64,000 nucleotides of DNA, from the NCBI GenBank assembly GCA_020137815.1, contig CM035352.1, positions 8,990,001 through 9,054,000 on the forward strand, read 5' to 3'. Numbering within the stretch: the first letter of the stretch is position 1; every line of letters starts with the position of its first letter. The notes beneath the pieces were generated by a model. It was not told the origin of the DNA and made no database searches. It saw only the letters and a list, made by a program, of their open reading frames with translations. Of this stretch, positions 22,532-55,676 are shown piece after piece. A program made the translations under genes and the position numbers. This DNA is from Hormiphora californensis (taxonomy: Eukaryota; Animalia; Ctenophora).

Positions 22532-25500
22532 TTAACCGAACCTCAGACTACCGTCTAGTAAGGGTTGACTCCCCTCAAAATCAGCAGATATCTCGGTGTA
22601 TCCTGACCCAGGTGGAGGACGGGGCGAGGCAATACACTCTATGTAGATAATCTCGTTGTATAGTAGGGTTCCGAGAAGGAGCATCGCAAATCCACCCAGC
22701 TGGAGGAATCCGTACCTGGCATGGGGGGGGGAGTTACCATGGTTACTGGGGGATTTACCATGGATACTGGGCCGGGGGAGTTACCATGGATACTAGATGG
22801 GGGAGGGGTAGAGGAATCCGTACCTGGCATGGGGGGGGGTGTACCAAGGTTACAGTTACCATGGCTACTAGATGGGGGGGGGGGGGGGTACCATGGTAAC
22901 TAGATGAGGGGCTAGAGGGGTAGAATCGGAGTATATATGGTAGGGATCTATTTATAAAAGAAAATGGAAAGGGTAAGTGGAGATTGTTTTTTGTCGACTT
23001 CACGTCTCCCTTAATCGTCTAATAAACACAATATGTTTCACATGGTTACCATGGTTACCATGTTTCACTCACGTCATGTCGAAGTTCTCTCCATAGTCTG
23101 TGGTTATGGCGTAGTGGATAAAGAGGTCAATTATCCAGACAAGGATAGTCCTACATGCATCAATCAGCGTCCGGTGAACCGCGGTAAGAGACTGAGGAGA
23201 GAAATAATGGTACAAATTAAAACAGGTTTCGCAACACAAGTTTCCTGCAAAACACCCTTCTCACAGTAACAAGTAACAAGTGTCTGGCTATCTGATCTAC
23301 ATATATATGTATTGTGCACACGAGGGGTGATCAACTATCAAGGCACGTTTTCATTGACTGGTTGGTACCAGAAACTTAAATAACAAAAAGAAAATTACCT
23401 TGGTAACAAATAACCATGGTAACAACTACTGAGTTTTACCTTGGTAACTAATAACCATGGTAACAACTACTGAGTTTTACCTTGGTAACTAATAACCATG
23501 GTAACAACTACTGAGAATTACCTTGGTAACCGTGGTAACAACTACTGAGTTTTACCTTGGTAACCATGGTAACAACTACTGAGTTTTACCTTGGTAACTA
23601 ATAACCATGGTAACAACTACTGAGTTTTACCTTGGTAACCATGGTAACAACTACTGAGTTTTACCTTGGTAACCGTGGTAACAACTACTGAGTTTTACCT
23701 TGGTAACCATGGTAACAACTACTGAGTTTTACCTTGGTAACCATGGTAACAACTACTGAGTTTTACCTTGGTAACTATGATAACTATGGTAACAACTACT
23801 GAGAATTACCTTGGTAACTATGGTAACAACTACTGAGTTTTACCTTGGTTACTATGATAACAACTACTGAGTTTTACCTTGGTAACTGAGAGTCCAAAGA
23901 AATTGTAAAATGCAATGCTAAGTAGATATAGCGCTCCAAATAGTAAGATAGGCCATCTGTTGTACATCTGAGGAAAGAGGGGGTGGTGATTACATATGAT
24001 ATGTCACCAAGATAAGTAGTAATGTAATAACAAAGGATTGAGAACTGGGGGACGAGAGAAATATTAATCAATTATCTAATTATCTAACTAATTACCTGTG
24101 CGACTGCATCAATTAAGAGGGATATCAATTAACTAATTAGTAATTATCTAACTAATTACCTGTGCGACTGCATCAATTGAGTCATCATGCATTGAGCTAA
24201 AGTGTCCGGTCGCAGGCATGAAGTAACAGATGGGTAGGACTAGTAGTGACATGAAAATAACACCAAAACATCCCTCCATACCCACCACCTGAAATAGTGT
24301 TTAGTAATTAGTATAATTAATATTAGTAATTAGTAAACAAATGAGAGGGGGATTAAACAACCCATCATTCCCCTCCCCGGCTCCCCACCGCCTGTGTGGC
24401 ACAGTAATAATTTTTTTGGAAAGCCGGGTTGACCGGTTCAACTTTATATACGAAATAAATCAGGTTACACAATCACTATATACACATTAAGTTGGTCATT
24501 AGGACTATAAAAGTAATAAGTTAGATTATAAGGTTAAAATCATTGTCATAAGAATTAAATCGGGTAAAACAGTTTCCTCTGTACCCCCTTATTGATATCA
24601 GTATAGTCTTCAGCAGACAAAATGAAAGGCGGAGCCGGATATAGCGGATGGAGTCGCTGTAGGTGTGGCCTGTTTTGTTGGATAGAAGGGTGGCAGCCCG
24701 TTTGTAAAAAACTTCCGCCTTAGGACCCATCAGGCCTGTAGTAGAGAACACAAGCGGCATGAAAGTCGCCTTTTCTACCTGTATTACACGGTCGTTATAG
24801 TTCCGGATCTTCTCCTGTTCGTGTCTCCGAAAAGTGTCATCCACGGACTGGCGGTTGTTAGTGGGTGCCAAAGAGTTGAAAACCCTTATATCCGTGTAAA
24901 CCTTGTCAAGCGGGCTCCACACACCTCTGGCCGAGACGTCAAGTCGGGCACTGTTCTCAGTGATTGTTGAACGATAGTTGAACGTCTCGCCGGAGATGGG
25001 AAGGAGCTGAGGCTCGACTTCGACATCCTTACACCCAGCCTCGAGTAGAATATTAGCAGTCAGGTCCCTGATGTTATTGTGGCGCATATACACGTACCCG
25101 CCAAGAGCGCATGATAAGCAATGTTCAAGGGTATTGACCTTTCCACAGGCACAGGACAGGGGAATGTTTTGGAACGGCAGATTGTATCTGAGAAGAAGGG
25201 CGTCATGAAACTGCTGTTTGTTTAGTACAAAACCGTGTTCCTTTAGAGGGAGGGCGGTTAGCCAACTAGAAGCGCCCCGGGAAGAAATTTCATCAAAAAG
25301 TCGTCTCTCGTTTTCAGGTATATTACCGCAGGCACTTTCCTTTTCGGTAGATTGGATCTTACGCTTTTTCTTGACAACGTCGGACTTGGCCTCCTTGGAG
25401 TCGGAGATAAATCTGCCGGCTCGTTCGTCATCAATAGACAAGCGCTGTTCAAGTATCAGTTCCTTCAGAGGAGCAGTGGCCTGGGTAGAGTTGGAGAACT

Positions 25501-28500
25501 CAGCATCAGCTTGAGATGGGGTAATGTGGATGCCAAGGCCTCCGTCCCTCGAGGGAAGAGCAAACACGGACCGTAGATGTTGTGGTAAATTGGGACCAAG
25601 TAATGCTGGGATAAAGGAGTTCGATATAGCCTCCTCAAGGGGGTCAAAAAGATTGCCAATGTCCGATGTTGTACGCATAAGAAACAACCATTTTTTCGAT
25701 AAACCCATTGAGTAACCACTATATGCACATTGGGGTTCAGAGAGGGCGATGGCAGACAACAACTCCACCTGTCTACACCATTCGTCAACCTTCCCAGACA
25801 CGAAAGTTGCCTTGAAATCAGCTGTCCCAATGGGGGACCCAAGATATCTAACACCATCAACCGTGACCACAACTCCTGTTCCATCAAATACTTCCTGTGC
25901 TCGACTGAGATGTTGTGGTTTCACCAGAAGCACTGATTTGGCCCCATTAGGATAGTATCCGTAACCAGGGCCACGTTCGCAGAGTTTATCCCACCAACGT
26001 TTGAGGTTAACCAAGCTTCCAGCACTGGCACCATCGTCTGCATAAAACATTTGGAACTCCACAATTGATGATAAATCGTTCATAAGGGGGTACAGCGAGA
26101 TAGAATAAAACGGGGCCGCTGCATTGTCGCCTTGAGTAGTACCCTCCCTCGACATAATAAATTTGCCATTGTATAAAAAGAGTTTGGATGGTAAACGGTA
26201 TATATTGATTAAAAAAATAGAAAAAACGGGGCATAAAAATCTCACATTTACTAAGGCAGTTTTTCGATTTAAAATGTTGAACGCATTTGAGGCATCAGCA
26301 CACAATATCCCTTCACACTCATCATTCTCCCAATAACTGTTCATGGCATGAATCGCCGCTTCACATCCACCTTCCTGACCAGCTGCCAGTTGAAGGGGCC
26401 CTGCAGCATTGATAATGTCTGATTTCAGGAATTGAGTCACTGTTCGCCCTACTATCCTTCTGAGAATTTCACCTACCCCTATGGGTCGAACTCCAGGGTT
26501 TTTATTCAGTCCAATTAACCTACAGGAAACTAAACTGGAGATAGTGGATGGGTCAATGAGCTCCGTACACAGTCGGCGGGTTACACGAGCCAGCGTGTTG
26601 CTGAGATTGTCACCTTCACGGGCAAAAGCTCGAGAACACAGCATTCTACTCCACAGGTCATCTGTCATGCCACTGGGGCCACATCCTCCACGAGTAGACT
26701 TTGCTGCCTTTTTGATGTCACTCCCGCCAATTGCATCAAAGATAACATGTTCAAAAGCAGGTGCAGGTCCTGAAGATAATAGGTGTGTACGATTCAAGGG
26801 CCCATCAGGAGGGTGTTTTGATTCGAGAGCAGCGATTAGTTCAGGAGTAACCTCCAGGGGCTCTGACTGGGCCTTGCCGACGAGTCTCATTGCACTACCC
26901 ACACGTCCATTAAACATCAACCTAGAAAAACCTCGACTAATACTCTCTTTGCTGGGACCACTTTTACGGAGACGCTTCTGAATCTCTCTCGCTTCTGATA
27001 ACAGTTCTGAAAATGATCCTTTCTTCCAAAGGTCAAGTCTCCGGGTTAGAGCAACTTTGTTTTCCTTGGCAGTTGATCTCTTTCCTGGATTTTGGAGCAG
27101 AAGTGCCCCGATGGTATGAATAGCAAGAATTGCTACCTGCTCCAGGTCTGATTTGTTGACCCAGGCGTTGGCGAGACGATCTATTTCAGAAACAAGGGCC
27201 CGCCCCGATGTGCCTTTAGGGAGCTTAAACATGTTTGGCCGCCAGCCAACGATGTCGGAGTAGGCCTTGAGAAGCTCGACCTCTATTTCTTGTCCCTTTA
27301 GAGCTCCCCAGGAGGCGGTGAGGGGTTGTGCCTGTTGGAAATCAGGAATAAGACAACAGTTGTGGCAGAACCATTTGGCGTCAGATAATTGAAGATTAGA
27401 GAATTGTTCGTCAGATAGACTGGCACATGTTGGGTGGTACCAGGACTGACAATTGTCACACAGAATTGATTGCCAAGAGGGCGTAAATTGAACGAAACCT
27501 GTGGAACATGTAGGGCAGTTCGTGACAGTATCGTCTGTGGACTTCGTCTCGTCGTGGCTGTGCCGTTCGTTTCTCTTCTTCTTGCCATTATCTGCAACGA
27601 CCATTGAGGCAGCCACAAGGACCACCTCAAATTCCGACAAATTTTGAGTAATAACAACAAAATGAGACGATATATTTAAAACAAAGGGGTAATGGAGAAA
27701 GTGTAGAGAGAGAGAGAGAGAACTGATAAGTAAAAGAACTGGTGGGCCATGATAGGTACACCGTAACGGGGTACCTATCATCACTTTCTCATTTATAGGG
27801 TTTCCCTCTCTCACACAAACACTTTTTCCCACCTCTTCCCAAGACAGTGTGACGGTCCCACACTTCATGTAGAGAGATGGAGGAAAACACAGAGAGAAAC
27901 CATATGTTTCTCTCTCTCTCTCTCTCTGTCCATCTTTATCTCTTCAGTCTCCCTCAACCTCCCCCTCTAGACACACTACACTGTAAAAACAGGATTCCAC
28001 CCTTGATCTGTGAGAGCCTCATCAATACATCCCTCACACAGCCCCCAAGAAAGAAAGAGAGAGAGAGGGACAGAGAAAACATCTCCATAATATCGGGTGG
28101 ATAATAATATTAGCTAGTTGGGTCAGTACCAATTATGCTAATTACCTGAACAGGCGGTACGTTATGTTTCTTGATAAATATCTCCTCGATCACCATTTGA
28201 CTAGCACTAACTAGTTGAGCAAGGAGAATACTGTGCTGTGATTGGCTAATGGAGGTCACGTGACACCAATACTGTGCTGTGATTGGCTAATGGAGGTCAC
28301 GTGACACCAATACTGTGCTGTGATTGGCTAATGTTACCTGAACAGGCGGTACATTATGTTTCTTAATAAATATCTCCTCGATCACCATCTGGCTAGCACT
28401 AACTAGCTGAGCAAGGAGAATCAGGATGATGCCTAATAGCATCTCAGCGTGTGTAACACCACTGTCTTGTGTAGCGCTACTACCTGAAACAGAGCTGTTA

Positions 28501-30010
28501 TTGGCTGGAGATAATACTGTGTTGTGATTGGCTAATGGAGGTCACGTGTCACCAATACTGTGCTGTGATTGGCTAATGTTACCTAGAACGGAGGAGAGGC
28601 CGACCATTGCCAAACCCACCATCACAAATGCCATTCCTATCCAGTTAGTAGGGTAGAGACGCCGTTTTAGGAAGATTACCTGTAATGATACCCTGGATTA
28701 GTCCACAACTGGGGTCTGTGGGCCCGGGGTGGGGGAGGGGGGTGGGGGCTGTAATACTACAACTAAGTGGTAGTAGTATCTGACTGTGGTCTGGAATCCC
28801 CTTGTATTAGTGTACTTTCTTTAGTTTCCATGTGATGCAATGTATTAGGCTCACCGATAGAATCCCCGCAAACACTATGATAGCTCCTCTAAGCATCTGC
28901 CACACAGAGGCCGGTACATACAGCAGACCAATACCAGATAAAGTTGTACCAATCAGATCACAGCATGTTGGTAACACGAATATACCAGTCAGAACCCGCC
29001 TGGAACATGTTTTTAAGTGAGTCAGGGGAGAGATAGACAGAAAATGCCCCGGGGGGCTTGCTGAAGTTTTTGTACTTCCCCCCTCGCACTACTTCCTCCT
29101 CTATGGCAGTGTTACCATCCTCCATGTACCCTCTCCCCACACTGCACCACCCCCCCCCCCTCACCCTCCACCCCGCCCTCCACCCCAACGCCCCACCCCC
29201 GCACCCACCCGCCCTCCACCACCGCACCCCCTCCACCCCCAACCGCCCCCGCCCCCTCCACCCAGCCCCCCTCCACTACTTACTCAGGTTCCTCCTCTCC
29301 CTCCTCCTGGATGGCAGTGTTCCCACCCGCCCTCCACCCAACCGCCCCGCACCCCCTCCACCCCCAACCGCCCCAGCCCCCTCCACTACTTACTCAGGCG
29401 ATTCCGAAGTAAGTAAGAAGTAAAGTAACCTCCACCCGCCCTCCACCCCACCGCCCCGCCCTCCACCCGCACCCCTCCACTACTTACTCAGGTTCCTCCT
29501 CTCCCTCCTCCTGGATTGCTGTGTTCCCATCCTCCCTGTACCCACCCTCCACCCAACCCCCTCCAAGGCCGCCCGCGCCCCCCATCTCCCCCTCCACCCC
29601 GCCCCCCCCCCCGCACCCACCCGCCCTCCACCCCACCCCCTCCACTACTTACTCAGGCGATTCCTCTACCTCCTCCTGGATGGCTGTGTTACCATCACTT
29701 GATGACTTTCTCTTCCGTCGCTGCCACTCGTACACAAACAGACACAATGCCTCACCATAGAACATCAGCAGGGTCTGAGAGAGGGGGATTGTTTAGTTAG
29801 GGTGGGATGATTAATTAATTATGAAATTGAAAAGAAAATCAAATCTCTCTATCTCCTAACCTGGAACCAGGGATGGTTAAACTTGTGCTCTTCTCCATAC
29901 TTCCCCGCTGCCACACTGTCGTTCTGCGCCTTCTTGGTGAGGGTGTTGAATGAACCTGTAACCAACATACCCACCACGAGTATAACTGTGTAGAGTTGGA
30001 TAGAGGCCAT
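22532..30010 (-). CDS. SLC35F6: Solute carrier family 35 member F6 (TANGO9-like nucleotide-sugar transporter), about 393 aa
   Basis: Nine phase-consistent exons: 30010-29861, 29774-29653, 28999-28855, 28679-28583, 28483-28338, 24288-24160, 23967-23878, 23191-23073, 22715-22532. Motifs GMLVTGSFNTL, FNHPWFQ, MFYGEALCL, CDLIGT, QMLRGAIIVF, QMVIEE, VGMEGCFG, SIAFYNFFGLSVTK, RTLIDACRT, FLQLGGF. Confidence 0.92.
23395..23887. repeat. Variable 33-41-bp tandem array repeating the SLC35F6 exon 7 end and donor
   Basis: Minus-strand unit ...GTTACCAAG|gtaaaactcagtagttgttaccatg, about 13 copies. Confidence 0.9.
24411..27646 (-). mobile_element. Apparently full-length CRE-like non-LTR retrotransposon in SLC35F6 intron 5
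   Basis: Single long ORF, short 3' UTR and A7 tail at 24411-24417. The 8-bp TSD AGTAATAA is at 24403-24410 and 27647-27654. Confidence 0.88.
24521..27604 (-). CDS. Retrotransposon ORF: PHD finger, reverse transcriptase, Zn motif and restriction-like endonuclease
   Basis: PHD CPTC..CDNCQSWYHPTC..WFCHNC. RT motifs GVRPIGVGE, DASNAFN, GTTQGD, FYADD, YLGSPIG. C-terminal CACG..EHCLSC, RHN, RLDV and EK..Y. The likely start is MVVADN at 27604, because the longer ORF extends beyond the TSD. Confidence 0.92.
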   Translation of the reverse strand: MVVADNGKKKRNERHSHDETKSTDDTVTNCPTCSTGFVQFTPSWQSILCDNCQSWYHPTCASLSDEQFSNLQLSDAKWFCHNCCLIPDFQQAQPLTASWGALKGQEIEVELLKAYSDIVGWRPNMFKLPKGTSGRALVSEIDRLANAWVNKSDLEQVAILAIHTIGALLLQNPGKRSTAKENKVALTRRLDLWKKGSFSELLSEAREIQKRLRKSGPSKESISRGFSRLMFNGRVGSAMRLVGKAQSEPLEVTPELIAALESKHPPDGPLNRTHLLSSGPAPAFEHVIFDAIGGSDIKKAAKSTRGGCGPSGMTDDLWSRMLCSRAFAREGDNLSNTLARVTRRLCTELIDPSTISSLVSCRLIGLNKNPGVRPIGVGEILRRIVGRTVTQFLKSDIINAAGPLQLAAGQEGGCEAAIHAMNSYWENDECEGILCADASNAFNILNRKTALVNVRFLCPVFSIFLINIYRLPSKLFLYNGKFIMSREGTTQGDNAAAPFYSISLYPLMNDLSSIVEFQMFYADDGASAGSLVNLKRWWDKLCERGPGYGYYPNGAKSVLLVKPQHLSRAQEVFDGTGVVVTVDGVRYLGSPIGTADFKATFVSGKVDEWCRQVELLSAIALSEPQCAYSGYSMGLSKKWLFLMRTTSDIGNLFDPLEEAISNSFIPALLGPNLPQHLRSVFALPSRDGGLGIHITPSQADAEFSNSTQATAPLKELILEQRLSIDDERAGRFISDSKEAKSDVVKKKRKIQSTEKESACGNIPENERRLFDEISSRGASSWLTALPLKEHGFVLNKQQFHDALLLRYNLPFQNIPLSCACGKVNTLEHCLSCALGGYVYMRHNNIRDLTANILLEAGCKDVEVEPQLLPISGETFNYRSTITENSARLDVSARGVWSPLDKVYTDIRVFNSLAPTNNRQSVDDTFRRHEQEKIRNYNDRVIQVEKATFMPLVFSTTGLMGPKAEVFYKRAATLLSNKTGHTYSDSIRYIRLRLSFCLLKTILISIRGYRGNCFTRFNSYDNDFNLII

Positions 30011-36998: not shown

Positions 36999-37109
36999 TC
37001 TACGTGTCTCTAGATTTAAAGCGTTGTTGAGTAAGAGGTGGGGGATTCAGCAAGATAAGTGACATAGTTCAACCTAAATTAGGGGTGAAGACTAAATTCT
37101 AGAACAAAC

Positions 37110-38905: not shown

Positions 38906-41900
38906 CTAAGATCCGCTCAGTTCCAACCCGATTCCTTTCCGATCTATCCTCTCTACCCTAACACCTAACCTCTGCCCCAATACCACTGTCCTCCCTACTG
39001 TCTTGCTCCTGTGTAACAAACCATCCCGTGAGGCACCTATATCAACAAATGCACCAAACTGGGTGACATTGGTAACCCTCCCCTCGGTTACCATGCCTAC
39101 CCGAACCTCACTAGCAGCACTGCTTCGGAGAAGGGGCTGTGAGAACTGGGATCTGTAGTCGTAGTTGATGGGTTGGGAGAGGGAGGAGATGATCTGGCTG
39201 CTTAGAGATGGGTACTGACCTAGCAGGGGGATTATAATGGGTCAATAATATGGGTACTGACCTAGCAGGGGGATTATAATGGGTCAATAATGAGTTGTCT
39301 TAGAGATGGGTACTGACCTAGCAGGGGGATTATAATGGGTCAATAATGAGTTGTCTTGGAGATGGGTACTGACCTAGCAGGGGGATTATAATGGGTCAAT
39401 AATGAGTTGTTCAGACTTCCCCATCCCCCTTTACAGTTTGATTATCTGAACGAAATAAATGTAGTGACATGTGAGATACATACCAATATCTACCATCTTT
39501 ATTCTCTGTATAAAACTGTCTGTCCCAATATCTCTCTTGTCAAGTCCCGCATCGCTAATTATCTGGTCTGTGAAAATATATGAGGTCAGAGGTACAGCCC
39601 GTGTGATTGTAAACGGTAACTTTACCTTGGTATGAGGCACCGAGTTAAATCGACTTGCGTTATGAAGATTAATCTAGTGACAATCTAAATCTAAACCAAT
39701 CAGGGACGACCTATACCTGCTAGTTCATAGCATTCAGGATGGACTGAAGTCTGATCAAGATAATCTATCATCACCCCATCCTTCTTCCTCTTTTTACTAC
39801 TTCCCACTGCTGCTGCCCTCTTTTTCCTCTTTCTACCACCGCTACCTTCTTCATCTGCACAGAAACACAAGGTTTAGATTGTTATGTTCTAACCCTCCTT
39901 TACCGGGGGCGCGGTGAAAGAGGGTCAAGCAAGATAAGTTTAGAAATTGGGTCGGCTGACACTTAGTCACCACTACAGTGAAACAAAAAGTATAAACAAT
40001 TTAATGATGGGATTTACCTGACTCTGCTTCCTCCACTTTTTCAGTGGTATCATCTGACTGATGGTAAATCCGCAGGAATCCTATACACTGTTCAAATGTC
40101 TTGGGACCCACCCCCTTTACCTTGAGCACCTAAATATTGGAGGCATGAAACTAACTGTCTAACTGTATTTAGATTGCCCCTGATCTACTAGTTAACCTAA
40201 TTGTTAATTATCCCGATTAGTGTAAAGCAACATTGAATGAAACAGTGGATAAGATTATTATACCTGTTGTCTGTTAGTAAATGGTCCACTATCACGTCTC
40301 CTTTGAACGATATTCTTGGCGGTAGCTACATTCAACCCAGCTACACGCTGCAATAACGCCTGACTACACATGTTTAAATCCGCTCCTGGGGAAGGCCGAA
40401 GGGAAGGGGAGAGGTCAAGACAATAATATTCCTGATGCTAAACCATTTGAAGTATTTGAGGTCCCCCAGTGGTGCCCCCCCCCCCCCCGTTTGTAAATGG
40501 ATCCCTACCTGTAAAACTGACACACTCCACGACAGTATCGTTGAGTCGTGAGTTGAGTTGAGAGGCAGGTAAGTCGTGTTGGTACTGTCCCACACCGAGA
40601 TGCTGAGGCTCGATCTTCACATACTCAGATAAGGGGTCAAGCAATCGCCGTCCTGAGAAGTAGAGTACGGTGAGGTGATTATATTATAACAGGGGATAGT
40701 GCAAAAACTGCCTCTTTTCTAGATTGGTAACCAAGTGGTTGCATCCTAGTTACCAAGTGGTTGCATCTTAGTTACCAAGTGGTTGTATCCTAGTTACCAA
40801 GTGGTTACCAAGTGTGTCTCTCACCTATACTGACTGCACTCCTATGGACCATGTTAACATCAGCTAACTCTGCCGCTGCCACATCTGAGCAACTGTAAAT
40901 ACTAGCACCTCTCTCTTCCACAACAGTGTACTTTACACCACCTCCCAACCTCTCAATCACCTGTGGGTGAGAGACTAGTGAATGAGGGGATTAAAGGGGT
41001 GTGTTAGTTAGTACATACATTATAAGGCCTTCGAAGGGAGGGACAAAAGAAAAGTTGGCCGAGAGTAGCACAACACAACAATGTACATTGTACATTGTAC
41101 AGTTAGGTACTAGGGGAATGTAAAAAGTAGAGTTACCTTGGTAACAGCGTGTTCCGTTTCCCTACAGGCAGTACCATTGCCAATACCAATGATACTGAAT
41201 CTGTGTTTCCTATACAGATCAACTATCACACCAGGCTGGACAAACTCTTTCGCCTAAATAGAAATCAATCTGTTATTGGGGGGGGGGGGGCCTGCCGCAA
41301 GAATCTCATGCCTCATTGGCGATTTTCAGGGTAGCTGAGATTTTTGGGATTTTCGATTTTTGGCTAAAAATTTTTGAGGCAAATTTGCGATTTTTCCGGA
41401 AAAAGTCGGAAATTTTTCTGAAAAATCTCATAGAAAGGAAAAATGTCCATTCGAAAGTTTGGGATAGAAACAATCCTTGTGTTTTTTAACCAAAAATCGA
41501 AATTCTGAATAGAAATTTTCCTTGTGTTCTAATACAAAAGACTAAGTATTGGCAGCCAAAATTGTTTCAATTTACCACAAAAATCTCAAACGTAATTGAT
41601 AAAATCTTTCCAAAATCTCAAATCCCCCCCCCCCCCCGAGATTACTTCACTAATTTGATATTAAAGCTCAGTACGATGGTAATGTATTAATTGCACTGAA
41701 CTGCTGTAGACATCACCCACTCACTTCATACACACACAACACCCACACACATGACCAAGCCTGTACGACAGGTTATTGATCACCGGCTGTATTACAGCAC
41801 GAGAGAGCCGTCACTAGTATCGTGCAGTGATCCGAAGATCATGATAACAATTAATAATGAACAGTTGGGCTATAGCAGTTGATCACGTCATATTAAAAGC

Positions 41901-42765
41901 TCAGTACGTTACCACAGGTTGCATCTACCCCCTCAGCAATCAATTGGGGTGTATTAATTAAGAATATTAATATTTTGTCCCACTCTAGAGAGAGAGAGAG
42001 GAAAATAAACTGGCCTAAACACGGCGAGGAATTATATTGCCTAGCTAGACTCTGTTTCGCTTTATGTAAAGGAGGGGTAGAACATAACAAGAATTATAAT
42101 TCATTTTTCATAGTAATTCGTTGTCCATTTCTCCGGGCCTGGCGTCCAGTGAAGGTTTTGCTAAGTTTGGCTTTTCCACACTATTATCAATAACGTATCT
42201 CTCTCTCTATAAAGTTGTGCTTGTTCAGTATAATTGGTCAATACGTTAATGAGGAAGGAAAGTGCTCCATTTCCGGTGGCGTGCATTGTACAGTAGCAGT
42301 AGGCCTCATGGCCTGGAGTTCATTAAAACGGCCCATTTAAACAGTTCTTATTGCACCGCACCAGTATCCCATGTTGGTATCAAAGACACCTCACACTCAG
42401 GCCGCTTCGCGGCCTTCGTTTGGTGCGCTTTGCGTGCCGGCAAGGGAGGGGTAACTTCGTTACCAATATCCCATGTTGACTCCATATTATAGCTTTAATA
42501 AATTGTGAGCCTTGCCGGTTAGTTCTCTCATTTCAAGAGCCCCTGAGAGACAGAAAAACAGAGAGTGAGAGAGAGAGAGAGAGAAAAGTTGCCAGAGATG
42601 TTGGTGTTTGAATAGTCCAGTCTCGGCAGTATCGTCCTCCATATTTTTCTCATAGGATGACCTCATGCTACAAACACACTTTCCCACCTTGTTTTGTTCA
42701 AACCCATTTTAGCTAGGCCATTACCACACCGATCACCGATTTCCTTCAAGGAAATGATGGAGGGA

Positions 42766-42849
<84 letters not shown>

Positions 42850-42886
42850 GAGAGAGAGAGAGAGGGGGGTGAGAGAGAGAGAGAGA

Positions 42887-42929
<43 letters not shown>

Positions 42930-45900
42930 TTCATACACCAACTTCTCTGGCAATTCCACCAGCACCTTTTGTGTCTCCCCACACTAACATTTGTCACTCG
43001 CTGTATTACATGCCATGTACCTGTGTCCACGGATTGACAGATGTTAAACTCTACAGCCACCGCAGAGCTGTAAATACAACTTTTTGTCACACGCAAATCT
43101 GAGATTTATTTTTTTGGTTGACAAACGCAAAAAATTATAGTCATTCTCATGCTTTACTTGCTTTTGCTTGGTCGAAAATTACCTACCTACTGAATTATAA
43201 TTCTATCTGCGCCTGCCTTTTTAGTCTGTCTTTAGACCACTCGATAATTAGTTTAAATTTTCCTGCAGCACAATATGTCAGAGGAATTCTGTCCGCCAAA
43301 CGGTTCAACAGCTGCACAAGTCAATCCAGACTTTATTTCCCCTGTGGATGATTGGAGAAAGGTATTTTTCTACTTTAATATACCTTGCGGAGTCATCGGT
43401 GTTGCTCTAAACACTCTCTGTCTTTTCTACTTCCTGAGGCACCAGCGGAAAGGGCTCGGCGACCAAATGGTTATGGGACTTTGTTTCTCCGACATCACGA
43501 TTTGCCTGGAGATGATGATAGTAATGGCGTACCCCTGGCAGCCAAACAACCTACAACCGGAGTATACAGCCATCTACTGCCTCTGGGCCGCGTTTATAGT
43601 TTTCAACTCTTTCATGCTTTACAGGCCTGTGGTATCTTCGTACGTATACCATTCTCCGGCCTTTGGTACGGATAAATCCAGTTCGCTTCAGGATCAAAAT
43701 TCTTGTTTCTTCAATTTTCGCAATCATCACAAATTTCGCATCGGGCATTCCCATGATGAAAATATGGTTTGGTAGTCTAATTAACGGGAGTCTGGAGTTG
43801 CCAAGTGGATTATGGACTATTCGGTGTACATAAGACTATCAGCTAGCCCAAGTGTTTCTCATGTTTAGTTTTGTCACTGGAGTCCTCAGTGTGAGGGCCA
43901 TAAAAATGTTGAGGAAAAGTGTCTCTCGATTGGAACTAGCCAAGGACTCTCTCAACAAGAGACATGCTGCTATCACGGTGCTAATCATCATATCAGTCCA
44001 ATTCAGTTCCCTCTTGGTATGGCTTTGTGTCGATACTTACATATTTGTATCATTATTGGGATTTACACCGTGCGGTGATGACTGGGCTGGTATATCTGAG
44101 CATGGATAAACAGCAGTACGATATTTTAAAGGCTACTTTGGTTCTAGAGATGCTGTGCACTTTAACATCTATTGCAAACCCTATCATCCATATTACAAGG
44201 AACGGAAGGTTGAATAAGTGGGTGAGGGAAACGTTCTGCTCTTATGCAATCCCTACACAAGGTGGGACCAATAGTGGAACTACAGCGATTACGGAAACCA
44301 CGCACGCAACAACCCCACTGAATCAACAAGAAACTAATTGATGTCCTTCAACAAGCATCTCTTCGTCTTCAAAAGAAGTTGTGAAAAGGTCAAGAAAAGA
44401 GGAGAGGAATCAAAAATGCAAGAAACAAAAATATGAAGTAAGAGGATGTGCCACGTGAACAAAAACGATGGAAGTTGCCCTCGGAAAGAACAATACACAG
44501 AAGTTTGGGTTTTGACACTATTATTATTAACCCATTATTAACCCATTATTGACCCATTATTGTTAATTATCATTGAACAGTTGGACCTCGGTTTACCGAG
44601 ATGCTCGGGGAAAGGATTTTATCGGTTATATATCTATTATCGGTGTGAAACATTGTAATTTCCTTATACTAAGTCGTCCAATAAATCGGGGTGATTGTCC
44701 GACTGTGTTACATCTTCACTTTAATATGTTATATTTGGGGGGGGGGGGGGGCTGCCGCAAGAATCTCATGCCTCATTGGCGATTTTCAGGGTATCTGAGA
44801 GTTTTGAGATTTTCGATTTTCAGCCAAAAAGTGTGAGATTAATGAGATTTTTGAGGCAAATCTGCGATTTTTCCGGGCAAAATCGCAAATTTTTCTCAAA
44901 AATCCCAAGAAAGGAAAAACTTCCATTACATCCTATAATTTGGGATAGAAACAATCCTTGTGTTTTTTTACAAAAATCAAAATTCTAAATAAAAACTGTC
45001 CTTGTGTTCTAATACAAAAGTAAATAAGAAGCTAAAATACAACATTGACCCTATCAAGTTACTAAATTAATAGTATTGTCTGGTTTAAAGCTATAAAATA
45101 TGACGAAAGAGTATTGGCATCCAAAATTGTACCAATTTACCACAAAAATCTCAAAAGTAATTGAGCAAATTTTCCCGAAAATCTCAAAATCTCATTGGCC
45201 AAAAGCAGGGTAGCTGAGATTTTTGCGGCAGCCCCCCCCCCCCTTATTGCGATGTACTTTGTAGTGTTAATAGTTATCAATCCGTTATTTCAATTTACTT
45301 TGTGGTGCCAATAGTTCTCATCCTGGATGTGGTGATTTTAGAAAATAATCTGTCACAACCCAACTCACATAATAATCAGCTTCTAATTACCTTTGCATTC
45401 AAGTGAGCAGTACAAGTATCCAGCACCTCTAATTACCTTTGCATTTAGGTGAGCAGTACAAGTATCCAGTACCTCTAATTACCTTTGCATTCAGGTGAGC
45501 AGTACAAGTATCCAGCACCTCTAATTACCTTTGCATTCAAGTGAGCAGTACAAGTATCCAGTACCTCTAATTACCTTTGCATTTAGGTGAGCAGTACAAG
45601 TATCCAGCACCTCTAATTACCTTTGCATTTAGGTGAGCAGTACAAGTATCCAGCACCTCTAATTACCTTTGCATTCAAGTGAGCAGTACAAGTATCCAGC
45701 ACCTCTAATTACCTTTGCATTCAAGTGAGCAGTACAAGTATCCAGTACCTCTAATTACCTTTGCATTTAGGTGAGCAGTACAAGTATCCAGTACCTCTAA
45801 TTACCTTTGCATTCAAGTGAGCAGTACAAGTATCCAGCACCTCTAATTACCTTTGCATTCAAGTGAGCAGTACAAGTATCCAGTACCTCTAATTACCTTT

Positions 45901-48900
45901 GCATTTAGGTGAGCAGTACAAGTATCCAGCACCTCTAATTACCTTTGCATTCAAGTGAGCAGTACAAGTATCCAGCACCTCTAATTACCTTTGCATTCAA
46001 GTGAGCAGTACAAGTGTCCAGCACCTCTAATTACCTTTGCATTCAAGTGAGCAGTACAAGTGTCCAGCACCTCTAATTACCTTTGCATTCAAGTGAGCAG
46101 TACAAGTATCCAGCACCTCTAATTACCTTTGCATTCAAGTGAGCAGTACAAGTATCCAGCACCTCTAATTACCTTTGCATTCAAGTGAGCAGTACAAGTA
46201 TCCAGCACCTCTAATTACCTTTGCATTCAAGTGAGCAGTACAAGTATCCAGTACCTCTAATTACCTTTGCATTTAGGTGAGCAGTACAAGTATCCAGCAC
46301 CTCTAATTACCTTTGCATTCAAGTGAGCAGTACAAGTATCCAGCACCTCTAATTACCTTTGCATTCAAGTGAGCAGTACAAGTGTCCAGCACCTCTAATT
46401 ACCTTTGCATTCAAGTGAGCAGTACAAGTATCCAGCACCTCTAATTACCTTTGCATTCAAGTGAGCAGTACAAGTATCCAGCACCTCTAATTACCTTTGC
46501 ATTCAAGTGAGCAGTACAAGTATCCAGCACCTCTAATTACCTTTGCATTCAAGTGAGCAGTACAAGTATCCAGCACCTCTAATTACCTTTGCATTCAAGT
46601 GAGCAGTACAAGTATCCAGCACCTCTAATTACCTTTGCATTCAAGTGAGCAGTACACGTGTCCAGCACCTCTAATTACCTTTGCATTCAAGTGAGCAGTA
46701 CAAGTATCCAGTACTTCTAATTACCTTTGCATTCAAGTGAGCAGTACAAGTATCCAGTACCTCTAATTACCTTTGCATTCAAGTGAGCAGTACAAGTATC
46801 CAGCACTTCTAATTACCTTTGCATTCAGGTGAGCAGTACAAGTATCCAGTACCTCTAATTACCTTTGCATTCAAGTGAGCAGTACAAGTATCCAGTACCT
46901 CTAATTACCTTTGCATTCAAGTGAGCAGTACAAGTATCCAGCACTTCTAATTACCTTTGCATTCAGGTGAGCAGTACAAGTATCCAGTACCTCTAATTAC
47001 CTTTGCATTCAAGTGAGCAGTACAAGTATCCAGTACCTCTAATTACCTTTGCATTCAAGTGAGCAGTGCAAGTATCCAGTACTTCTAATTACCTTTGCAT
47101 TCAAGTGAGCAGTACAAGTATCCAGCACCTCTAATTACCTTTGCATTCAAGTGAGCAGTACAAGTATCCAGCACCTCTAATTACCTTTGCATTCAAGTGA
47201 GCAGTACAAGTATCCAGCACCTCTAATTACCTTTGCATTCAAGTGAGCAGTACAAGTATCCAGCACCTCTAATTACCTTTGCATTCAAGTGAGCAGTACA
47301 AGTATCCAGTACCTCTAATTACCTTTGCATTTAGGTGAGCAGTACAAGTATCCAGTACCTCTAATTACCTTTGTATTTAGGTGAGCAGTACAAGTATCCA
47401 GCACCTCTAATTACCTTTGCATTCAAGTGAGCAGTACAAGTATCCAGTACCTCTAATTACCTTTGCATTCAAGTGAGCAGTACAAGTATCCAGCACCTCT
47501 AATTACCTTTGCATTCAAGTGAGCAGTACAAGTATCCAGCACCTCTAATTACCTTTGCATTTAGGTGAGCAGTACAAGTTTCCAGCACCTCTAATTACCT
47601 TTGCATTCAAGTGAGCAGTACAAGTATCCAGCACCTCTAATTACCTTTGCATTTAGGTGAGCAGTACAAGTTTCCAGCACCTCTAATTACCTTTGCATTC
47701 AGGTGAGCAGTACAGGTATCCAGTACTTCTAATTACCTTTGCATTCAAGTGAGCAGTACAAGTATCCAGTACCTCTAATTACCTTTGCATTCAGGTGAGC
47801 AGTACAAGTATCCAGTACCTCTAATTACCTTTGCATTCAAGTGAGCAGTACAAGTATCCAGCACCTTTAATTACCTTTGCATTTAGGTGAGCAGTACAAG
47901 TATCCAGCACCTCTAATTACCTTTGTATTCAAGTGAGCAGTACAAGTATCCAGCACCTCTAATTACCTTTGCATTCAAGTGAGCAGTACAAGTATCCAGC
48001 ACCTTTAATTACCTTTGCATTCAAGTGAGCAGTACAAGTATCCAGCACCTCTAATTACCTTTGCATTCAAGTGAGCAGTACAAGTATCCAGCACCTCTAA
48101 TTACCTTTGCATTCAAGTGAGCAGTACAAGTATCCAGTACCTCTAATTACCTTTGCATTCAAGTGAGCAGTACAAGTATCCAGTACCTCTAATTACCTTT
48201 GCATTCAAGTGAGCAGTACAAGTATCCAGTACTTCTAATTACCTTTGCATTCAAGTGAGCAGTACAAGTATCCAGTACTTCTAATTACCTTTGCATTCAA
48301 GTGAGCAGTACAAGTATCCAGTACCTCTAATTACCTTTGCATTCAAGTGAGCAGTACAAGTATCCAGCACTTCTAATTACCTTTGCATTCAGGTGAGCAG
48401 TACAAGTATCCAGTACCTCTAATTACCTTTGCATTCAAGTGAGCAGTACAAGTATCCAGTACCTCTAATTACCTTTGCATTCAAGTGAGCAGTACAAGTA
48501 TCCAGCACTTCTAATTACCTTTGCATTCAGGTGAGCAGTACAAGTATCCAGTACCTCTAATTACCTTTGCATTCAAGTGAGCAGTACAAGTATCCAGTAC
48601 CTCTAATTACCTTTGCATTCAAGTGAGCAGTGCAAGTATCCAGTACTTCTAATTACCTTTGCATTCAAGTGAGCAGTACAAGTATCCAGCACCTCTAATT
48701 ACCTTTGCATTCAAGTGAGCAGTACAAGTATCCAGCACCTCTAATTACCTTTGCATTCAAGTGAGCAGTACACGTATCCAGTACCTCTAATTACCTTTGC
48801 ATTCAAGTGAGCAGTACAGGTATCCAGTACCTCTAATTACCTTTGCATTTAGGTGAGCAGTACAAGTATCCAGTACCTCTAATTACCTTTGCATTTAGGT

Positions 48901-51568
48901 GAGCAGTACAAGTATCCAGCACCTCTAATTACCTTTGCATTCAAGTGAGCAGTACAAGTATCCAGCACCTCTAATTACCTTTGCATTTAGGTGAGCAGTA
49001 CAAGTATCCAGCACCTTTAATTACCTTTGGATTTAGGTGAGCAGTACAAGTATCCAGCACCTCTAATTACCTTTGCATTCAAGTGAGCAGTACAAGTATC
49101 CAGTACCTCTAATTACCTTTGCATTCAAGTGAGCAGTACAAGTATCCAGCACCTCTAATTACCTTTGCATTCAAGTGAGCAGTACAAGTATCCAGCACCT
49201 CTAATTACCTTTGCATTTAGGTGAGCAGTACAAGTTTCCAGCACCTCTAATTACCTTTGCATTCAAGTGAGCAGTACAAGTATCCAGCACCTCTAATTAC
49301 CTTTGCATTTAGGTGAGCAGTACAAGTTTCCAGCACCTCTAATTACCTTTGCATTCAGGTGAGCAGTACAGGTATCCAGTACTTCTAATTACCTTTGCAT
49401 TCAAGTGAGCAGTACAAGTATCCAGTACCTCTAATTACCTTTGCATTCAGGTGAGCAGTACAAGTATCCAGTACCTCTAATTACCTTTGCATTCAAGTGA
49501 GCAGTACAAGTATCCAGCACCTTTAATTACCTTTGCATTTAGGTGAGCAGTACAAGTATCCAGCACCTCTAATTACCTTTGTATTCAAGTGAGCAGTACA
49601 AGTATCCAGCACCTCTAATTACCTTTGCATTCAAGTGAGCAGTACAAGTATCCAGCACCTTTAATTACCTTTGCATTCAAGTGAGCAGTACAAGTATCCA
49701 GCACCTCTAATTACCTTTGCATTCAAGTGAGCAGTACAAGTATCCAGCACCTCTAATTACCTTTGCATTCAAGTGAGCAGTACAAGTATCCAGTACCTCT
49801 AATTACCTTTGCATTCAAGTGAGCAGTACAAGTATCCAGTACCTCTAATTACCTTTGCATTCAGGTGAGCAGTACAAGTATCCAGTACCTCTAATTACCT
49901 TTGCATTCAAGTGAGCAGTACAAGTATCCAGCACCTCTAATTACCTTTGCATTCAAGTGAGCAGTACAAGTATCCAGCACCTCTAATTACCCTTGCATTC
50001 AAGTGAGCAGTACCAGTATCCAGTACCTCTAATTACCTTTGCATTTAGGTGAGCAGTACAAGTATCCAGCACCTCTAATTACCTTTGCATTCAAGTGAGC
50101 AGTACAAGTATCCAGTACCTCACCCATCTCATCTAGCACTGCCATCTTGCACCCATTCTTATACCCCGGATCCAGTGCCAGCACTCTAACTGACCCGTGT
50201 ATGGGTGGTGTGAGAAGGAGATGTCTCAGGTTCTCAACAAATACACCTACAGAACTCCCTACTGCAACCTCCTTTAGCTGTCCCCTGACCCGGCGGGTTA
50301 GATAGGACTTCAGACTGGTAGTGGCGGCTGTTATAACTCTGTTGTGGATCTCGGGTGCACGTATCATGTTCATTGCACGTTGACAGGAGCGTTTTAGGTT
50401 CTCAACACTAGCTGTAGGAAGGGTAACTGAGACACTGAGAGCCTTTAACTTCTCGCCCCTGTTTATTGCCATAACCTCAAAGGGTTGGAGAACATCAACT
50501 GATTTTCTCATCTTGAAGTAGTGACTGAATTTCTCTCCTGTTGCATCTGCTTCTTTAGATTTCGATTTCTCTACACTCATCATAATTCCTCGTCTATGGG
50601 TCTTCAGAATGCTCTCACAGCAGTCCATTACATCTCGATTTGTTTTGACCAAGTCCACCAACACTGCATCCACTAAGTTCCATTTCCCAGCGAGATCTAT
50701 AGTTTTAGTAACACCTCCCTCATCTCGGACCTGAATCTTATCTCCCGGGAGCACGGGACATCCAGCTAGCAGGGCAAATGCAACAGGTTCCAGTCCTTGT
50801 GTACGTGCCTTTTGAAGGGTTGATCCTTGTTTAGCTGGCATGTAGGGAGCAGACACTGGGAGGGGGGGATAAAATGTTAAACTAATATAATAATCGATAA
50901 CAGATCAAGTTAAATTATTAGTTACTCAGTAACTGATGAACTACTAATTTAACTGTTGAAAACTGGGACATACCTCTTACCTATTTCCAATGCAGAGAGG
51001 GTGGTACAACTAACAATTGAGTGTGCAACTTTGGATGTCAACTTCTTCTCCTTCTCTATTGCAGCTAAACTCTTCGTTATTTCTTTTGCCAGTTTATCTA
51101 GCCTTGCCATCTCCTCCTTTATTTTGTAAAGTTTATCAACCCCCATGTTACCTACATTCTCCCCTCGGTACCTGTGTAATGTTATCGTGTGTGTGTGGAT
51201 AGTAGTCAACGTGTAACTTGACAGTTGTGAAGTGTGAACTTCATCCCTAGAACTCATTATGTAAACTCTAATCAATAACATTTTCTGGTAACAAAGATGG
51301 GCTCTCTACTATCTAGGTGTGTGTACCTTGCTATATGAATGGTATCGTGCTATCAGGAAATACTGGTCCCTGATTGGCTGATAACCAGTCACGTGACCTA
51401 AATAAAGAGTTCTGATTGGTTCCTGAACATGTACCTCGCTATGAAGGGTATCGTGCTATCTGATCGCATGAGATTTTCAGCATTCCTCACGTAAACCTCA
51501 TTTTCTCCGATTTTATCAGAGATCAGCTTCGAGGTTGTCCATCGGGGTTTAAGCTCTTTCAAACTCAT
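38906..51568 (-). CDS. SRBD1: S1 RNA-binding domain protein 1 (Tex-like)
   Basis: About 11 exons, including 51568-51435, 51171-50981, 50856-50083 and 41253-41137, down to a last exon ending at 38906. Tex motifs [79 protein letters not shown], and a C-terminal S1 domain ([11 protein letters not shown]). Confidence 0.95.
39207..39410. repeat. Four copies of the SRBD1 last-exon acceptor and exon start
   Basis: GATGGGTACTGACCTAGCAGGGGGATTATAATGGGTCAATAAT four times; minus strand cccctgctag|GTCAGTACCCAT. Confidence 0.9.
41277..41640. mobile_element. Partial copy of the MITE family at 44737
   Basis: GGGGGGG..CTGCCGCAAGAATCTCATGCCTCATTGGCGATTTTCAGGG shared with 44737. Confidence 0.75.
43275..44341 (+). 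pseudogene. Intronless rhodopsin-class GPCR pseudogene, nested antisense in SRBD1 intron 3
   Basis: TM1 [17 protein letters not shown]2 GLCFSD, TM3 end RTYTILRP (shifted frame), TM6 [11 protein letters not shown] and TM7 [10 protein letters not shown]. The sequence is split across several frames. Confidence 0.8.
44737..45243. mobile_element. MITE with GGGGG-CTGCCGCAA(G/A)A terminal inverted repeats
   Basis: GGGGGGGCTGCCGCAAGAATCTC at the left and GAGATTTTTGCGGCAGCCCCCCC at the right. Confidence 0.8.
45382..50121. repeat. 46-bp tandem array (about 100 copies) of the SRBD1 exon 3 end and 5' splice site
   Basis: Minus-strand unit GTGCTGGATACTTGTACTGCTCACTTGAATGCAAAG|gtaattagag ([12 protein letters not shown] plus donor). 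The first unit is the true exon end at 50083. Confidence 0.97.
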
Positions 51569-51782
51569 ACTAGATTTAACGAAATGATTGAGTAAAAAAC
51601 GCCTGGTTTGAGGAAAATTAAAGGACTTTTTTTCAAATGTTCTCCCTTCTTCTACTGATAACTCCGGTTCCTTATGAGATAGAGACATCAACCTGGGGGC
51701 ATTGGGAAGGTCTTACAATTATCTTTCTAATGCACCTAGGATGGAGTCTGTATCTTACCTGGGACCAGAGATATCATAGAAA

Positions 51783-52467: not shown

Positions 52468-52965
52468 CAGCGTTAAAATCTTTTTTCTTTTTTTTTTTGG
52501 AAAAGAGGTTTAAAATTATACGGATAACAATCAAATTATATATAAACACACTGTGGTAATAAATTAAACATACAATAAATTAATATCTATACTACTGGAA
52601 TAGTATGGTGTAATCGTCTTCCCTCGGTAACCCCGGAGGCTGACAATGAGAGTTTTGAGGAGACAGAAACTGGGGTGTAGGAACGATTTTTCAAGTGAGG
52701 GGGCGAAGTCACGTGACCAATTACAGCGCTGGCCAGCGCCCAAGAAAATTTTTTGTGAGCAAGATTTAGCCACCTATTCAATTGCATTCGGGCGGAGCGA
52801 CAGCGGAGCCCGAGAAAATTTTTAGGGGTTTGAGCCAAAAAGTCATGATTTCGTCATTTGGGAGTATGTGTTGACTGTTGGCGACAAAGTGAGGGGGCGA
52901 ACCTGGCCAAAAGTGGGGGGGGCGGCCGCCCCCCTCGCCCCCCCCCCCCTATTCCTACACCCCTG

Positions 52966-53456
52966 GACAGAAAGATAGTCTCTGTCGGATGTAGCGTACC
53001 GCATCAGGGATAGATTGTTTAGTTTTCCCGGAAAGGAGAACTGCCAGTCTGCGGTAGAACCTTTCTGCTTCACGTCCCATGGTTCCGGTGGTGGAGAAAA
53101 CAATGGGTGTGAAAGAGGCTTTCTCTACTTCCAGGATTCGTTCGTTATACACCCTCTTTTTCTCTTTCTCGTGAGAAGCCAAGGCCGATTTCAATGACTT
53201 TTTGATGTTGGAGTCAGCACGTGAGTTAAACACTCTGATGTCAAGAAAGGTTTTGTCCATGTCAACCCATACCTTCCTAGCAGACACGTCAAGCCTGGCT
53301 TGATCATCAGTGTTGGCACTCTTGTATTTGAAATGCTCTCCAGTGATGGGAAGGAGATGTGGTTCAATAGTAACGTCTGTACATCCAGCCTCGGACAGAA
53401 GATTCGCAGTGAGGTCCCGTATTTGATTGTGGCGGAGATGAACGTAGCCACCAAGG
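52966..53456 (-). pseudogene. Truncated CRE-like retrotransposon fragment (endonuclease region)
   Basis: GGYVHLRHNQIRDLTANLLSEAGCTDV.IEP..ARLDVSAR..DIRVFNS..EK.RVYNERILEVEKASFTPIVFSTTG is homologous to the C-terminus of the 24.5-kb ORF but diverged. Confidence 0.85.
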
Positions 53457-54273
53457 GTGTTTCGTGAGTGCTGACAAACGGTTTTTTAGGGTTAGGGCTA
53501 AAGTGGGGTTAGGGTTAGGGCTGGTGTTTGGGTTGGGGTTAGGCCTTGACATTGCCTACCACATAAACTTTGAATTAGCCAAAACGGTTGAGTGGTTCGG
53601 CGGTTAGAGCCGTTTTAGTGAATCAACTTTTTTGGTAGCGCGCACCTGTAAACAGGCCACCAAACACCCAGATCGTAACGGCGCCCGCCTGGTACTGGAC
53701 AGAAATTTTACTTTTTAGTTTTTTCTTTTTTTTGAAAATAGTGCCACAACACGGATTGGCGCCACTTTTCAACAGCTGAGGAGAAACCGCCGAAGAGAGA
53801 AAGGGGTAATTAATCCTGACTAGTCTCACAGACATTTTGAGGAGAAATCTGGGTGTTTTAAGTGTCAGCACTCGCGGTTTTTAGGGTGAGGACTAAAATT
53901 CTAAAGTAGGGTCAATGTTGAGGAGTGAGGTTCGGGTTGGGTCTTGAGGTTTCCTATCAGATTGACTTTGAATTAGCCAAAAGGTTGAGTGGTTTGATCG
54001 TTAGAGTGTAAACAGGCCGTTAAAGACCCTGGACCCATATCGTAACGGCGCCCCATTTTGAGCTTATGGTCTGCGATTAACCCTTCATTTAACCCCTTTC
54101 TCTTTTCGGCAGCTTCTCCCCTGTTATTGAAAAAAGATGTTGATATGTCCTCTCGGCTCTCTAGCCCCTGCTTGACACCCCTCCGCCTTGTTTTCTAGTT
54201 TGATTCTATTGTTCAACGAATTGGTACGATTAACTAATGAGACTGACCCCTATCCATCCTGTTCCCATTAGCC

Positions 54274-55452: not shown

Positions 55453-55676
55453 GAGAAAATATTTTTATTCTTGATATCGTTACTTTGCATTTTATTCATT
55501 GTTAGAATATGGGAGTAGTATCATTCTTACCCCCATTTGACTGTCTCTCCCAACACCCCTTCCTCCCTAGTATAGTACCCAGACTCCACTCCTCCCTTTT
55601 TTACGTTTCCATTCCCTCTATTATAGCCTCCTCTCCGATCCCCCTTTATTACACCCCCTCTATTATAGCTCCGTTG

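What the first reader, a model, noticed from the sequence alone, without database searches (positions are those of the whole stretch)
45382..50121. About 100 intronic copies of an exon end plus donor whose variants are mostly synonymous in the SRBD1 reading frame
Seen in sequence: the 46-bp unit is 36 nt of coding sequence ([12 protein letters not shown]) plus gtaattagag. Read in the exon's frame, the recurrent variants are Val GTG/GTA, Leu TTG/CTG/CTA, Asp GAT/GAC, Thr ACT/ACC/ACG, Cys TGT/TGC and GAG/GAA at the preceding Glu position. Non-synonymous changes (GAT>GAA, GCA>ACA, GCA>CCA, TGT>GGT, GAG>AAG) are rarer. A neutral intronic satellite has no reason to respect codons. Reading into the array frameshifts and hits TAG within two units, so only the first donor is productive. 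Inference: the array and the live exon end exchange sequence by gene conversion or unequal crossing-over. Either the array records past alleles of the exon, or units rotate into the coding position and are filtered by selection. A more speculative option is that units act as alternative microexons (..ATG G|gtgagg donor to aattag|AG GTG acceptor stays in frame). Higher-order blocks of about 34-36 units show ongoing turnover.
Basis: partly seen in the sequence, partly recalled or inferred. Interest (0 to 1): 0.9.

Follow-up and report, generated by a model that had tools for sequence, protein, structure and literature searches.

The report
Intron repeat stores exon's silent variants
In a comb jelly, the last 36 bases of an SRBD1 exon and its splice signal are repeated 103 times into the next intron, a known kind of repeat, and the copies differ mostly at silent codon positions, likely because they were copied from other natural versions of the exon rather than because they are translated.

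Summary
The array is real: 103 exact-period 46-bp units (minus strand, 50118-45381), each 36 nt of SRBD1/Tex exon end plus the donor, in a Pleurobrachia-like ctenophore. Read-contig depth fits roughly 100 copies, and a second sample from another study also carries it. It belongs to the known class of splice-junction minisatellites (human F7 intron 7, amphioxus 'mirages'). Independent support comes from other junction duplications in the same window: 8 of 9 differences synonymous (P=3e-4), or 12 of 17 when a low-complexity exon end is added. Exon alleles in the runs differ by 6-12%, and 36 of 40 listed differences are silent. Best reading: intronic copies are taken from other alleles of the exon (unequal exchange or templated repair between homologues), then amplified and shuffled. 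Allele matching was not shown and splicing could not be tested. Microexon use is unlikely.

The parts
45381..50118 (-). Minisatellite of 103 x 46 bp; each unit = last 36 nt of SRBD1 exon 3 + first 10 nt of the intron
50083..50118 (-). Unit 1, exonic part ([12 protein letters not shown]); the only copy in frame with the exon; phase-0 donor follows at 50082
   Evidence: Tex_YqgF match ends here
50083..50855 (-). SRBD1/Tex exon 3 (Tex central region and start of YqgF domain)
41254..50082 (-). Predicted 8,829-nt intron that holds the array
   Evidence: predicted from GT/AG and homology, no RNA
41137..41253 (-). Predicted next exon (AKEFVQPG...AVTK), phase 0
45340..45381 (-). 3' junction of the array; source of the position-46 A variant; the same flank is joined to a unit in run X5
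   Evidence: loose end at 50074
51324..51460 (-). SRBD1 exon-1 end and donor (51460-51433), a ~78-bp piece of a high-copy element, then a second copy of the exon end (51354-51324) with 2 synonymous differences and a 2-nt insertion; absent from one contig each of X1 and X5
39208..39410 (-). SRBD1 last acceptor and exon start repeated 4 times; the 1 difference is non-synonymous
28142..28421 (-). Control locus: 84-nt exon end + donor of a nucleotide-sugar-transporter-like gene, duplicated (28421-28334 and 28229-28142); 5 of 5 differences synonymous
29282..29696 (-). Control locus: exon end + GTAAGT donor of the same gene copied three more times; 4 of 8 differences synonymous over the whole exon end
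23395..23886 (-). Control locus: ~34-bp donor-spanning array (13 copies, 9 exonic nt); 1 of 1 difference synonymous

Best explanation
The array is a splice-junction minisatellite: the end of SRBD1 exon 3 and its donor are repeated 103 times into the intron, the cell is predicted to splice at the first donor only, and the silent-site variants were likely captured from other alleles of the exon. Shown: the anatomy, the frameshift and stop past unit 1, the microhomology at the junction, all four combinations of the variants at unit positions 3 and 25 (so units recombine internally), and block duplications of 34-36 units. Inferred: a misaligned crossover or templated repair between two homologous chromosomes copies one allele's exon end behind the other's. 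Because alleles here differ by 6-12%, almost all at silent sites already filtered by selection, the copies are born differing synonymously (2-4 differences expected in 36 nt; three common ones are seen). Slippage and unequal exchange then amplify and shuffle them, and later mutations inside the intron add the rarer amino-acid-changing variants. The copies need no function and no translation.
For: Array: 7 of 12 distinct variants synonymous against 3.8 expected, P=0.031; the three variants in 19 or more units are all synonymous, and no non-synonymous one exceeds 4 units. Other junction duplicates in the window: of seven scored, two show no difference; four give 8 of 9 synonymous against 2.64 expected, P=2.7e-4; adding the whole low-complexity exon end gives 12 of 17 against 4.16, P=3.7e-5. 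The 84-nt duplicate differs at 5 of 5 silent sites and, by my reading of the sequence, has no in-frame acceptor, so post-duplication drift cannot easily explain it. Exon contigs of runs X5/X6 differ from the window by 8/137 to 30/252; 36 of 40 listed exonic differences are synonymous, including a CTA/TTG Leu pair just upstream of the array, the same kind of pair as in the units. One X6 exon contig is clipped by 2 letters at unit position 25-26, a hint that this variable site also varies among exonic alleles. Depth profile: 103 copies simulate to a peak 825x the exon; observed 1039x (X1), 988x (X3), 737x (X6), 101x (X5).
Against: The array alone is only marginally significant, and it was picked out for this very pattern. 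5 of 12 distinct variants are non-synonymous. The letters carried by exon-linked unit 1 in other alleles were not listed by the tool, so the allele match is unproven. At the exon-1 duplicate, the X5 joint placement suggests that allele keeps the window's GCG, not the copy's GCA (my inference). The control duplicates were found and framed by me, without RNA, and most were not checked against reads. The last-acceptor repeat gives 0 of 1 synonymous. No gradient of variants from the exon end is seen, which gives no support for continual re-seeding from unit 1.
Confidence: 0.65

Rival explanations
1. Ordinary neutral minisatellite: a few early mutations happened to fall on silent sites and were amplified by drift; no exchange with exonic alleles.
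For: Only 12 distinct variants, P=0.03 before allowing for how the finding was chosen; three top transitions all silent has about a 5% chance by my arithmetic from the 14 of 36 silent transitions; an earlier scan note on another genome found distinct variants near chance (e1-7810567, unchecked).
Against: The same skew appears in independent duplicates in the window, 8 of 9 and 12 of 17.
Confidence: 0.2
2. Two-way exchange: array units rotate into the coding position by contraction or conversion, so selection on unit 1 purges amino-acid-changing variants from the whole array.
For: Unit-like contigs stay close to the window's unit in the second sample (28 of 60 and 104 of 161 laid contigs 99% or more alike) while the exon elsewhere differs by 6-12%; units recombine internally.
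Against: Selection would act on 1 of 103 positions; two-copy duplicates show the skew without any array to rotate; recent spread of the array across alleles explains the similarity equally well.
Confidence: 0.07
3. Assembly mixing of two haplotypes creates or inflates the copies, and the silent differences are simply the two alleles of one animal.
For: The H. californensis paper notes haplotype redundancy in the published P. bachei assembly (PMC8527503, passage); the window has a probable 1-base error at 51627; most control duplicates were not read-checked.
Against: Depth fits about 100 copies per exon copy in X1 and X3; variants are interleaved unit by unit with exact 17-unit block repeats; the 3' junction occurs in another study's run; the 84-nt duplicate lacks the exon's first part and acceptor, which a simple merge would not produce.
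Confidence: 0.05
4. Internal units are spliced in as 36-nt in-frame microexons, so they are under protein-level selection.
For: Each unit has 36 nt in frame between an AG and a GT.
Against: 5 of 15 pyrimidines before the internal AGs against a pyrimidine-rich real acceptor; 5 non-synonymous variants tolerated; direct splicing puts the IGNG motif at position 54 counted from DPG, homologues 53-62, one extra unit 66 (my count); the alternative upstream donor would delete a Gly found in 177 of 189 aligned homologues.
Confidence: 0.03

Closest known systems
Human F7 intron 7 37-bp VNTR and the class listed with it (6-16/IFI6, CBS intron 13, lamin B2, PDGF intron 4); Borensztajn et al. 2006, PMC1557585 (abstract and 12 passages read)
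   Same: First monomer spans the exon-intron boundary, so the donor is reiterated in the intron; in F7 only the most upstream donor is used.
   Different: Here 103 copies against 5-25 in the listed genes; 36 of 46 nt are exonic (4 of 37 in F7), which allows a codon analysis; the passages read say nothing on silent-site variation.
Amphioxus 'mirage' minisatellites (Adh3, globins BflGb6/BflGb9); Ebner et al. 2010 (author name from an earlier scan note), PMC3087553 (abstract and mirage passages read). The original Adh paper (PMC117041) is not held and was not read.
   Same: Tandem copies of exon-intron boundaries at both donors and acceptors, several per genome region, length-unstable, attributed to unequal crossing-over, not disturbing splicing.
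   Different: Found here in a ctenophore and at high density (eight junction duplications in three genes of one 64-kb window, counting the array); the word 'synonymous' does not occur in that paper's main text.
Rogers' tandem-duplication model of intron gain (cited in PMC3087553; the paper itself not read)
   Same: Duplication across AG/GT sites creates new potential splice signals.
   Different: A 46-bp unit breaks the frame, and no new exon or intron is evident here.

Membership tests
Splice-junction minisatellite (F7 IVS7 type / mirage) | Head-to-tail tandem units of minisatellite size | tested here: met
   46 bp x 103, 0% indels
Splice-junction minisatellite (F7 IVS7 type / mirage) | First unit spans a real exon-intron boundary | tested here: met
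   Unit 1 ends the Tex/SRBD1 reading frame; the next homologous exon begins at 41253 in phase 0; boundary inferred from homology and GT/AG
Splice-junction minisatellite (F7 IVS7 type / mirage) | Donor sequence reiterated in the intron | tested here: met
   All 103 units keep the donor heptamer at exact 46-bp spacing
Splice-junction minisatellite (F7 IVS7 type / mirage) | mRNA uses the first donor; the others are silent | not testable with these tools
Splice-junction minisatellite (F7 IVS7 type / mirage) | Copy number varies between alleles or individuals | tested here: inconclusive
   Peak-to-exon depth ratios 101-1039 across four runs against 825 simulated; contig depth is no copy number
In-frame microexon cassette array | Functional 3' splice site before each unit | tested here: not met
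   5 of 15 pyrimidines upstream of the internal AGs
In-frame microexon cassette array | Inclusion of extra units in mRNA or protein | not testable with these tools
   No RNA; homologous proteins need no extra residues here

The most novel reading that the evidence does not exclude
In this hyper-polymorphic ctenophore genome, splice-junction duplications are routinely made by copying from the homologous chromosome, so introns hold a genome-wide archive of other exon alleles, including ones lost from the population. Non-coding DNA thereby carries a false signature of purifying selection, and large arrays such as this one stay tied to their exon by continuing exchange and could feed silent variants back into it.
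Probability: 0.35. Interest if true: 0.68.

Novelty: new variant of a known kind. Interest (0 to 1): 0.42.

Why it matters
The repeat class is known, but a silent-site signature in intronic copies gives a way to tell where junction duplications come from (homologue versus sister or slippage), a point PMC3087553 calls unclear for mirages. It is directly testable genome-wide with one phased assembly. It also warns that a synonymous excess in exon-like intronic DNA is not by itself evidence of hidden exons in highly polymorphic marine animals. Nine literature searches of an open-access library, judged from listings and from passages of three papers, found no report of this signature or of such arrays in ctenophores; subscription papers were not covered.

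Tried and rejected
No whole genome is held for this window, so no genome-wide count of junction duplicates was possible. Sequencing runs: no RNA holder listed; X7 (RNA by guess) laid only one repeat-element contig; neither is evidence on expression. Joints in X5/X6 that first looked like splicing are not: 51321-51430 is the insertion polymorphism, 50865-50956 does not match the intron ends (50980-50856), and 50121-50586 rests on one contig of depth 3. My first idea that 51322-51429 is a gained or lost intron was dropped. Laying contigs on 1.5 units did not list variant letters inside the array, and matching contig shapes to simulated unitigs gave no unambiguous shared rare variant. The unit motif had 0 matches in metagenome contigs; the protein scan returned 50 loci of 27-59% identity, none a close relative. 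The first control count (13 of 15) used a pattern degenerate at third positions and a hand-picked block, so I replaced it by 8 of 9 without that locus and 12 of 17 with its whole exon end; the 'worst case' (16 of 26) had a misaligned short copy and is discarded. The other-frame control gave 7, 3, 2, 1, 3 and 6 of 12; the 6 is probably the antisense frame that shares third positions. GAG/GAA and GAG>AAG (unit positions 46 and 44) were left out of the codon test as intronic or junction positions. The 25-bp array at 19100-20320, the 22-bp repeat at 40724-40806 and the start-codon repeats at 29994-30219 were looked at and not scored; the 13-nt acceptor copy near 22830 is identical by eye and was not scored.
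Full report
1. Observation. Tandem Repeats Finder reports 45382-50121, period 46, 103 copies, no indels. On the minus strand there are 103 units at exact 46-bp spacing; each is 36 nt reading [12 protein letters not shown] followed by 10 nt that begin with a GT donor. Unit 1 (50118-50083) ends an open frame with Tex_YqgF and Tex central-region matches. tblastn with SRBD1 proteins of a sea star, a sea hare, a sea urchin and Bolinopsis maps the gene on the minus strand from about 51577 to 38912. The next homologous exon starts at 41253 after a pyrimidine-rich acceptor, in phase 0, giving a predicted 8,829-nt intron. Reading past donor 1 stops inside unit 2. A neighbouring PCID2 frame is 98% identical to a Pleurobrachia bachei protein and 74% to Bolinopsis, so this is a Pleurobrachia-like ctenophore.

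2. How strong is the silent skew? The 36 nt hold 12 distinct variants: 7 synonymous and 5 not. Matching for 8 transitions and 4 transversions, 3.8 are expected (P=0.031; 0.0075 unmatched). Weighted by copies it is 100 of 110 (permutation P=0.004), but copies descend from one another. The three common variants (positions 3, 25, 27) are all silent; the non-synonymous ones occur in 1-4 units. All four combinations of positions 3 and 25 occur (46, 28, 16, 13), so units recombine internally. Units 7-23 repeat as 43-59 and 31-40 as 65-74. Variant frequencies show no trend along the array. On its own the array is a marginal case.

3. An independent test in the same window. Junction-spanning duplications are common here: two more in SRBD1 (exon-1 donor, last acceptor), four scored in a nucleotide-sugar-transporter-like gene at 22-30 kb (weak Pfam UAA match, E=0.005; the name SLC35F6 is my recall) and one at a kringle exon acceptor. 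Of these seven, two show no difference from the exon. Four give 8 of 9 synonymous differences against 2.64 expected (P=2.7e-4): 5 of 5 in an 84-nt exon end, 2 of 2 (plus a 2-nt insertion) at SRBD1 exon 1, 1 of 1 and 0 of 1. The seventh, a low-complexity exon end, gives 4 of 8 over its whole length; with it the total is 12 of 17 against 4.16 (P=3.7e-5). A fourth, donor-less copy at that locus was left out of the last count. Frames were assigned by me from open frames, splice signals and homology, not from RNA. If such copies simply decayed after duplication, most differences would change amino acids; they do not, so the copies were probably born different.

4. Where could the differences come from? 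Seven runs were listed, none on record as RNA. Contigs of X5 and X6 (one sample label, another study) differ from the window's exon by 44/464, 29/349, 30/252, 8/137 and 23/240. Of the exonic differences that the tool listed (34 of the 40 rows shown, out of 157, plus 6), 36 of 40 are synonymous, including a CTA/TTG Leu pair just upstream of the array. At 6-12% divergence two alleles differ at 2-4 of 36 nt, nearly all silent, which is what the three common array variants look like. High exonic heterozygosity is reported for the close relative Hormiphora californensis (3.2% overall; PMC8527503, passages). The tool did not list letters inside the array, so the direct match is unproven. One X6 exon contig is clipped by two letters at unit position 25-26, a hint of an exonic variant there. 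Against: at the exon-1 duplicate the X5 joint suggests that allele has the exon's GCG rather than the copy's GCA (inference).

5. Is it real? Summed contig depth over the unit peaks at 1039x, 988x, 737x and 101x the exon depth in X1, X3, X6 and X5; a de Bruijn simulation of the window's 103 copies gives 825x with a similar profile. This is order-of-magnitude only, and X1/X3 may be the source animal. X5 has a contig joining a unit to the same 3' flank, so the array or at least its end exists in a second sample. The exon-1 insertion is skipped by one contig each in X1 and X5, while another X1 contig covers its junction with 37 and 30 letters on the two sides, one short of the tool's bridging rule; it looks polymorphic.

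6. Mechanism. Shown: anatomy, frameshift, junction microhomology, internal recombination, block duplication, allele divergence. Inferred: misaligned crossover or templated repair between homologues copies one allele's exon end behind another's; two of the control duplicates have foreign sequence between the copies (a piece of the preceding intron at 28337-28230; a piece of a high-copy element at 51432-51355), which fits template switching. Amplification and shuffling follow, and fresh intronic mutations add the rare non-synonymous variants. Splicing at the first donor is predicted from the frame and from the F7 precedent, where only the most upstream donor is used (PMC1557585). Rivals: chance (0.2), rotation into the coding position under selection (0.07), haplotype mixing in the assembly (0.05), microexons (0.03). 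Microexons are disfavoured by the weak internal acceptors, the conserved Gly that the alternative donor would remove (177 of 189) and the spacing to the IGNG motif.

7. Comparison and novelty. The array meets the three sequence-level features of splice-junction minisatellites (human F7, CBS, lamin B2, PDGF, 6-16; amphioxus mirages); first-donor use was not testable and length variation is inconclusive. Earlier scan notes list many such arrays in other animals, one with about 155 copies, and two with a silent-site skew (unchecked AI notes, not support). What is added here is the ctenophore case, the density of such duplicates, and a within-window control plus allele data pointing to allele capture. 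My nine searches found no paper on that signature; the original amphioxus Adh paper and supplements of the papers read were not seen and may bear on it. Verdict: new variant of a known kind, interest 0.42.

Noticed in passing
window 51324-51432: A ~78-bp piece of a very high-copy element (loose ends in the runs show inverted terminal arms that the window's copy lacks) sits at the SRBD1 exon-1 donor with a ~30-bp duplicate of the exon end; contigs of X1 and X5 lack the 108-110 bp.
   Followed up: partly
window 43257-43775 and 43985-44341 (+): Two open frames on the opposite strand inside the array-bearing intron look like pieces of a nested seven-helix receptor gene (impression from recall; the first had no Pfam match, the second was not scanned).
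   Followed up: partly
window 22500-30220 (-): A nucleotide-sugar-transporter-like gene has a duplicated splice junction or start region at about six places (29994-30219, 29282-29696, 28142-28421, 24077-24181, 23395-23886, near 22830).
   Followed up: partly
window 32990-33250 (+): 40-bp x 6.5 repeat of an acceptor and the first 14 nt of a kringle-domain exon; copies identical in the exonic part.
   Followed up: yes
window 24521-27943 (-): 1140-codon open frame with PHD finger and reverse-transcriptase matches inside an intron of the transporter-like gene; a related fragment lies at 52955-53485 (similarity seen by eye).
   Followed up: partly
window 41278-41640 and 44730-45245: Two related AT-rich elements bounded by C/G runs and inverted ends (MITE-like) in the array-bearing intron.
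   Followed up: no
window 51627: X1, X5 and X6 contigs all lack one base here, so the window probably has a 1-base assembly error upstream of SRBD1 exon 1's matched part.
   Followed up: no
window 1-1125: 84-bp (28-codon) repeat, 13.5 copies, open in one frame except for a frameshift near 590.
   Followed up: no
window 19100-20320: 25-bp x 48.8 near-perfect array at the end of a short Cys-rich frame; not obviously at a splice site.
   Followed up: no
window 54247-55452 (+), 35577-37046 (-), 55506-57944 (+): Intronless frames for PCID2, a KDM8/JmjC-like protein and an 812-residue coiled-coil protein, in contrast to the intron-rich neighbours.
   Followed up: partly
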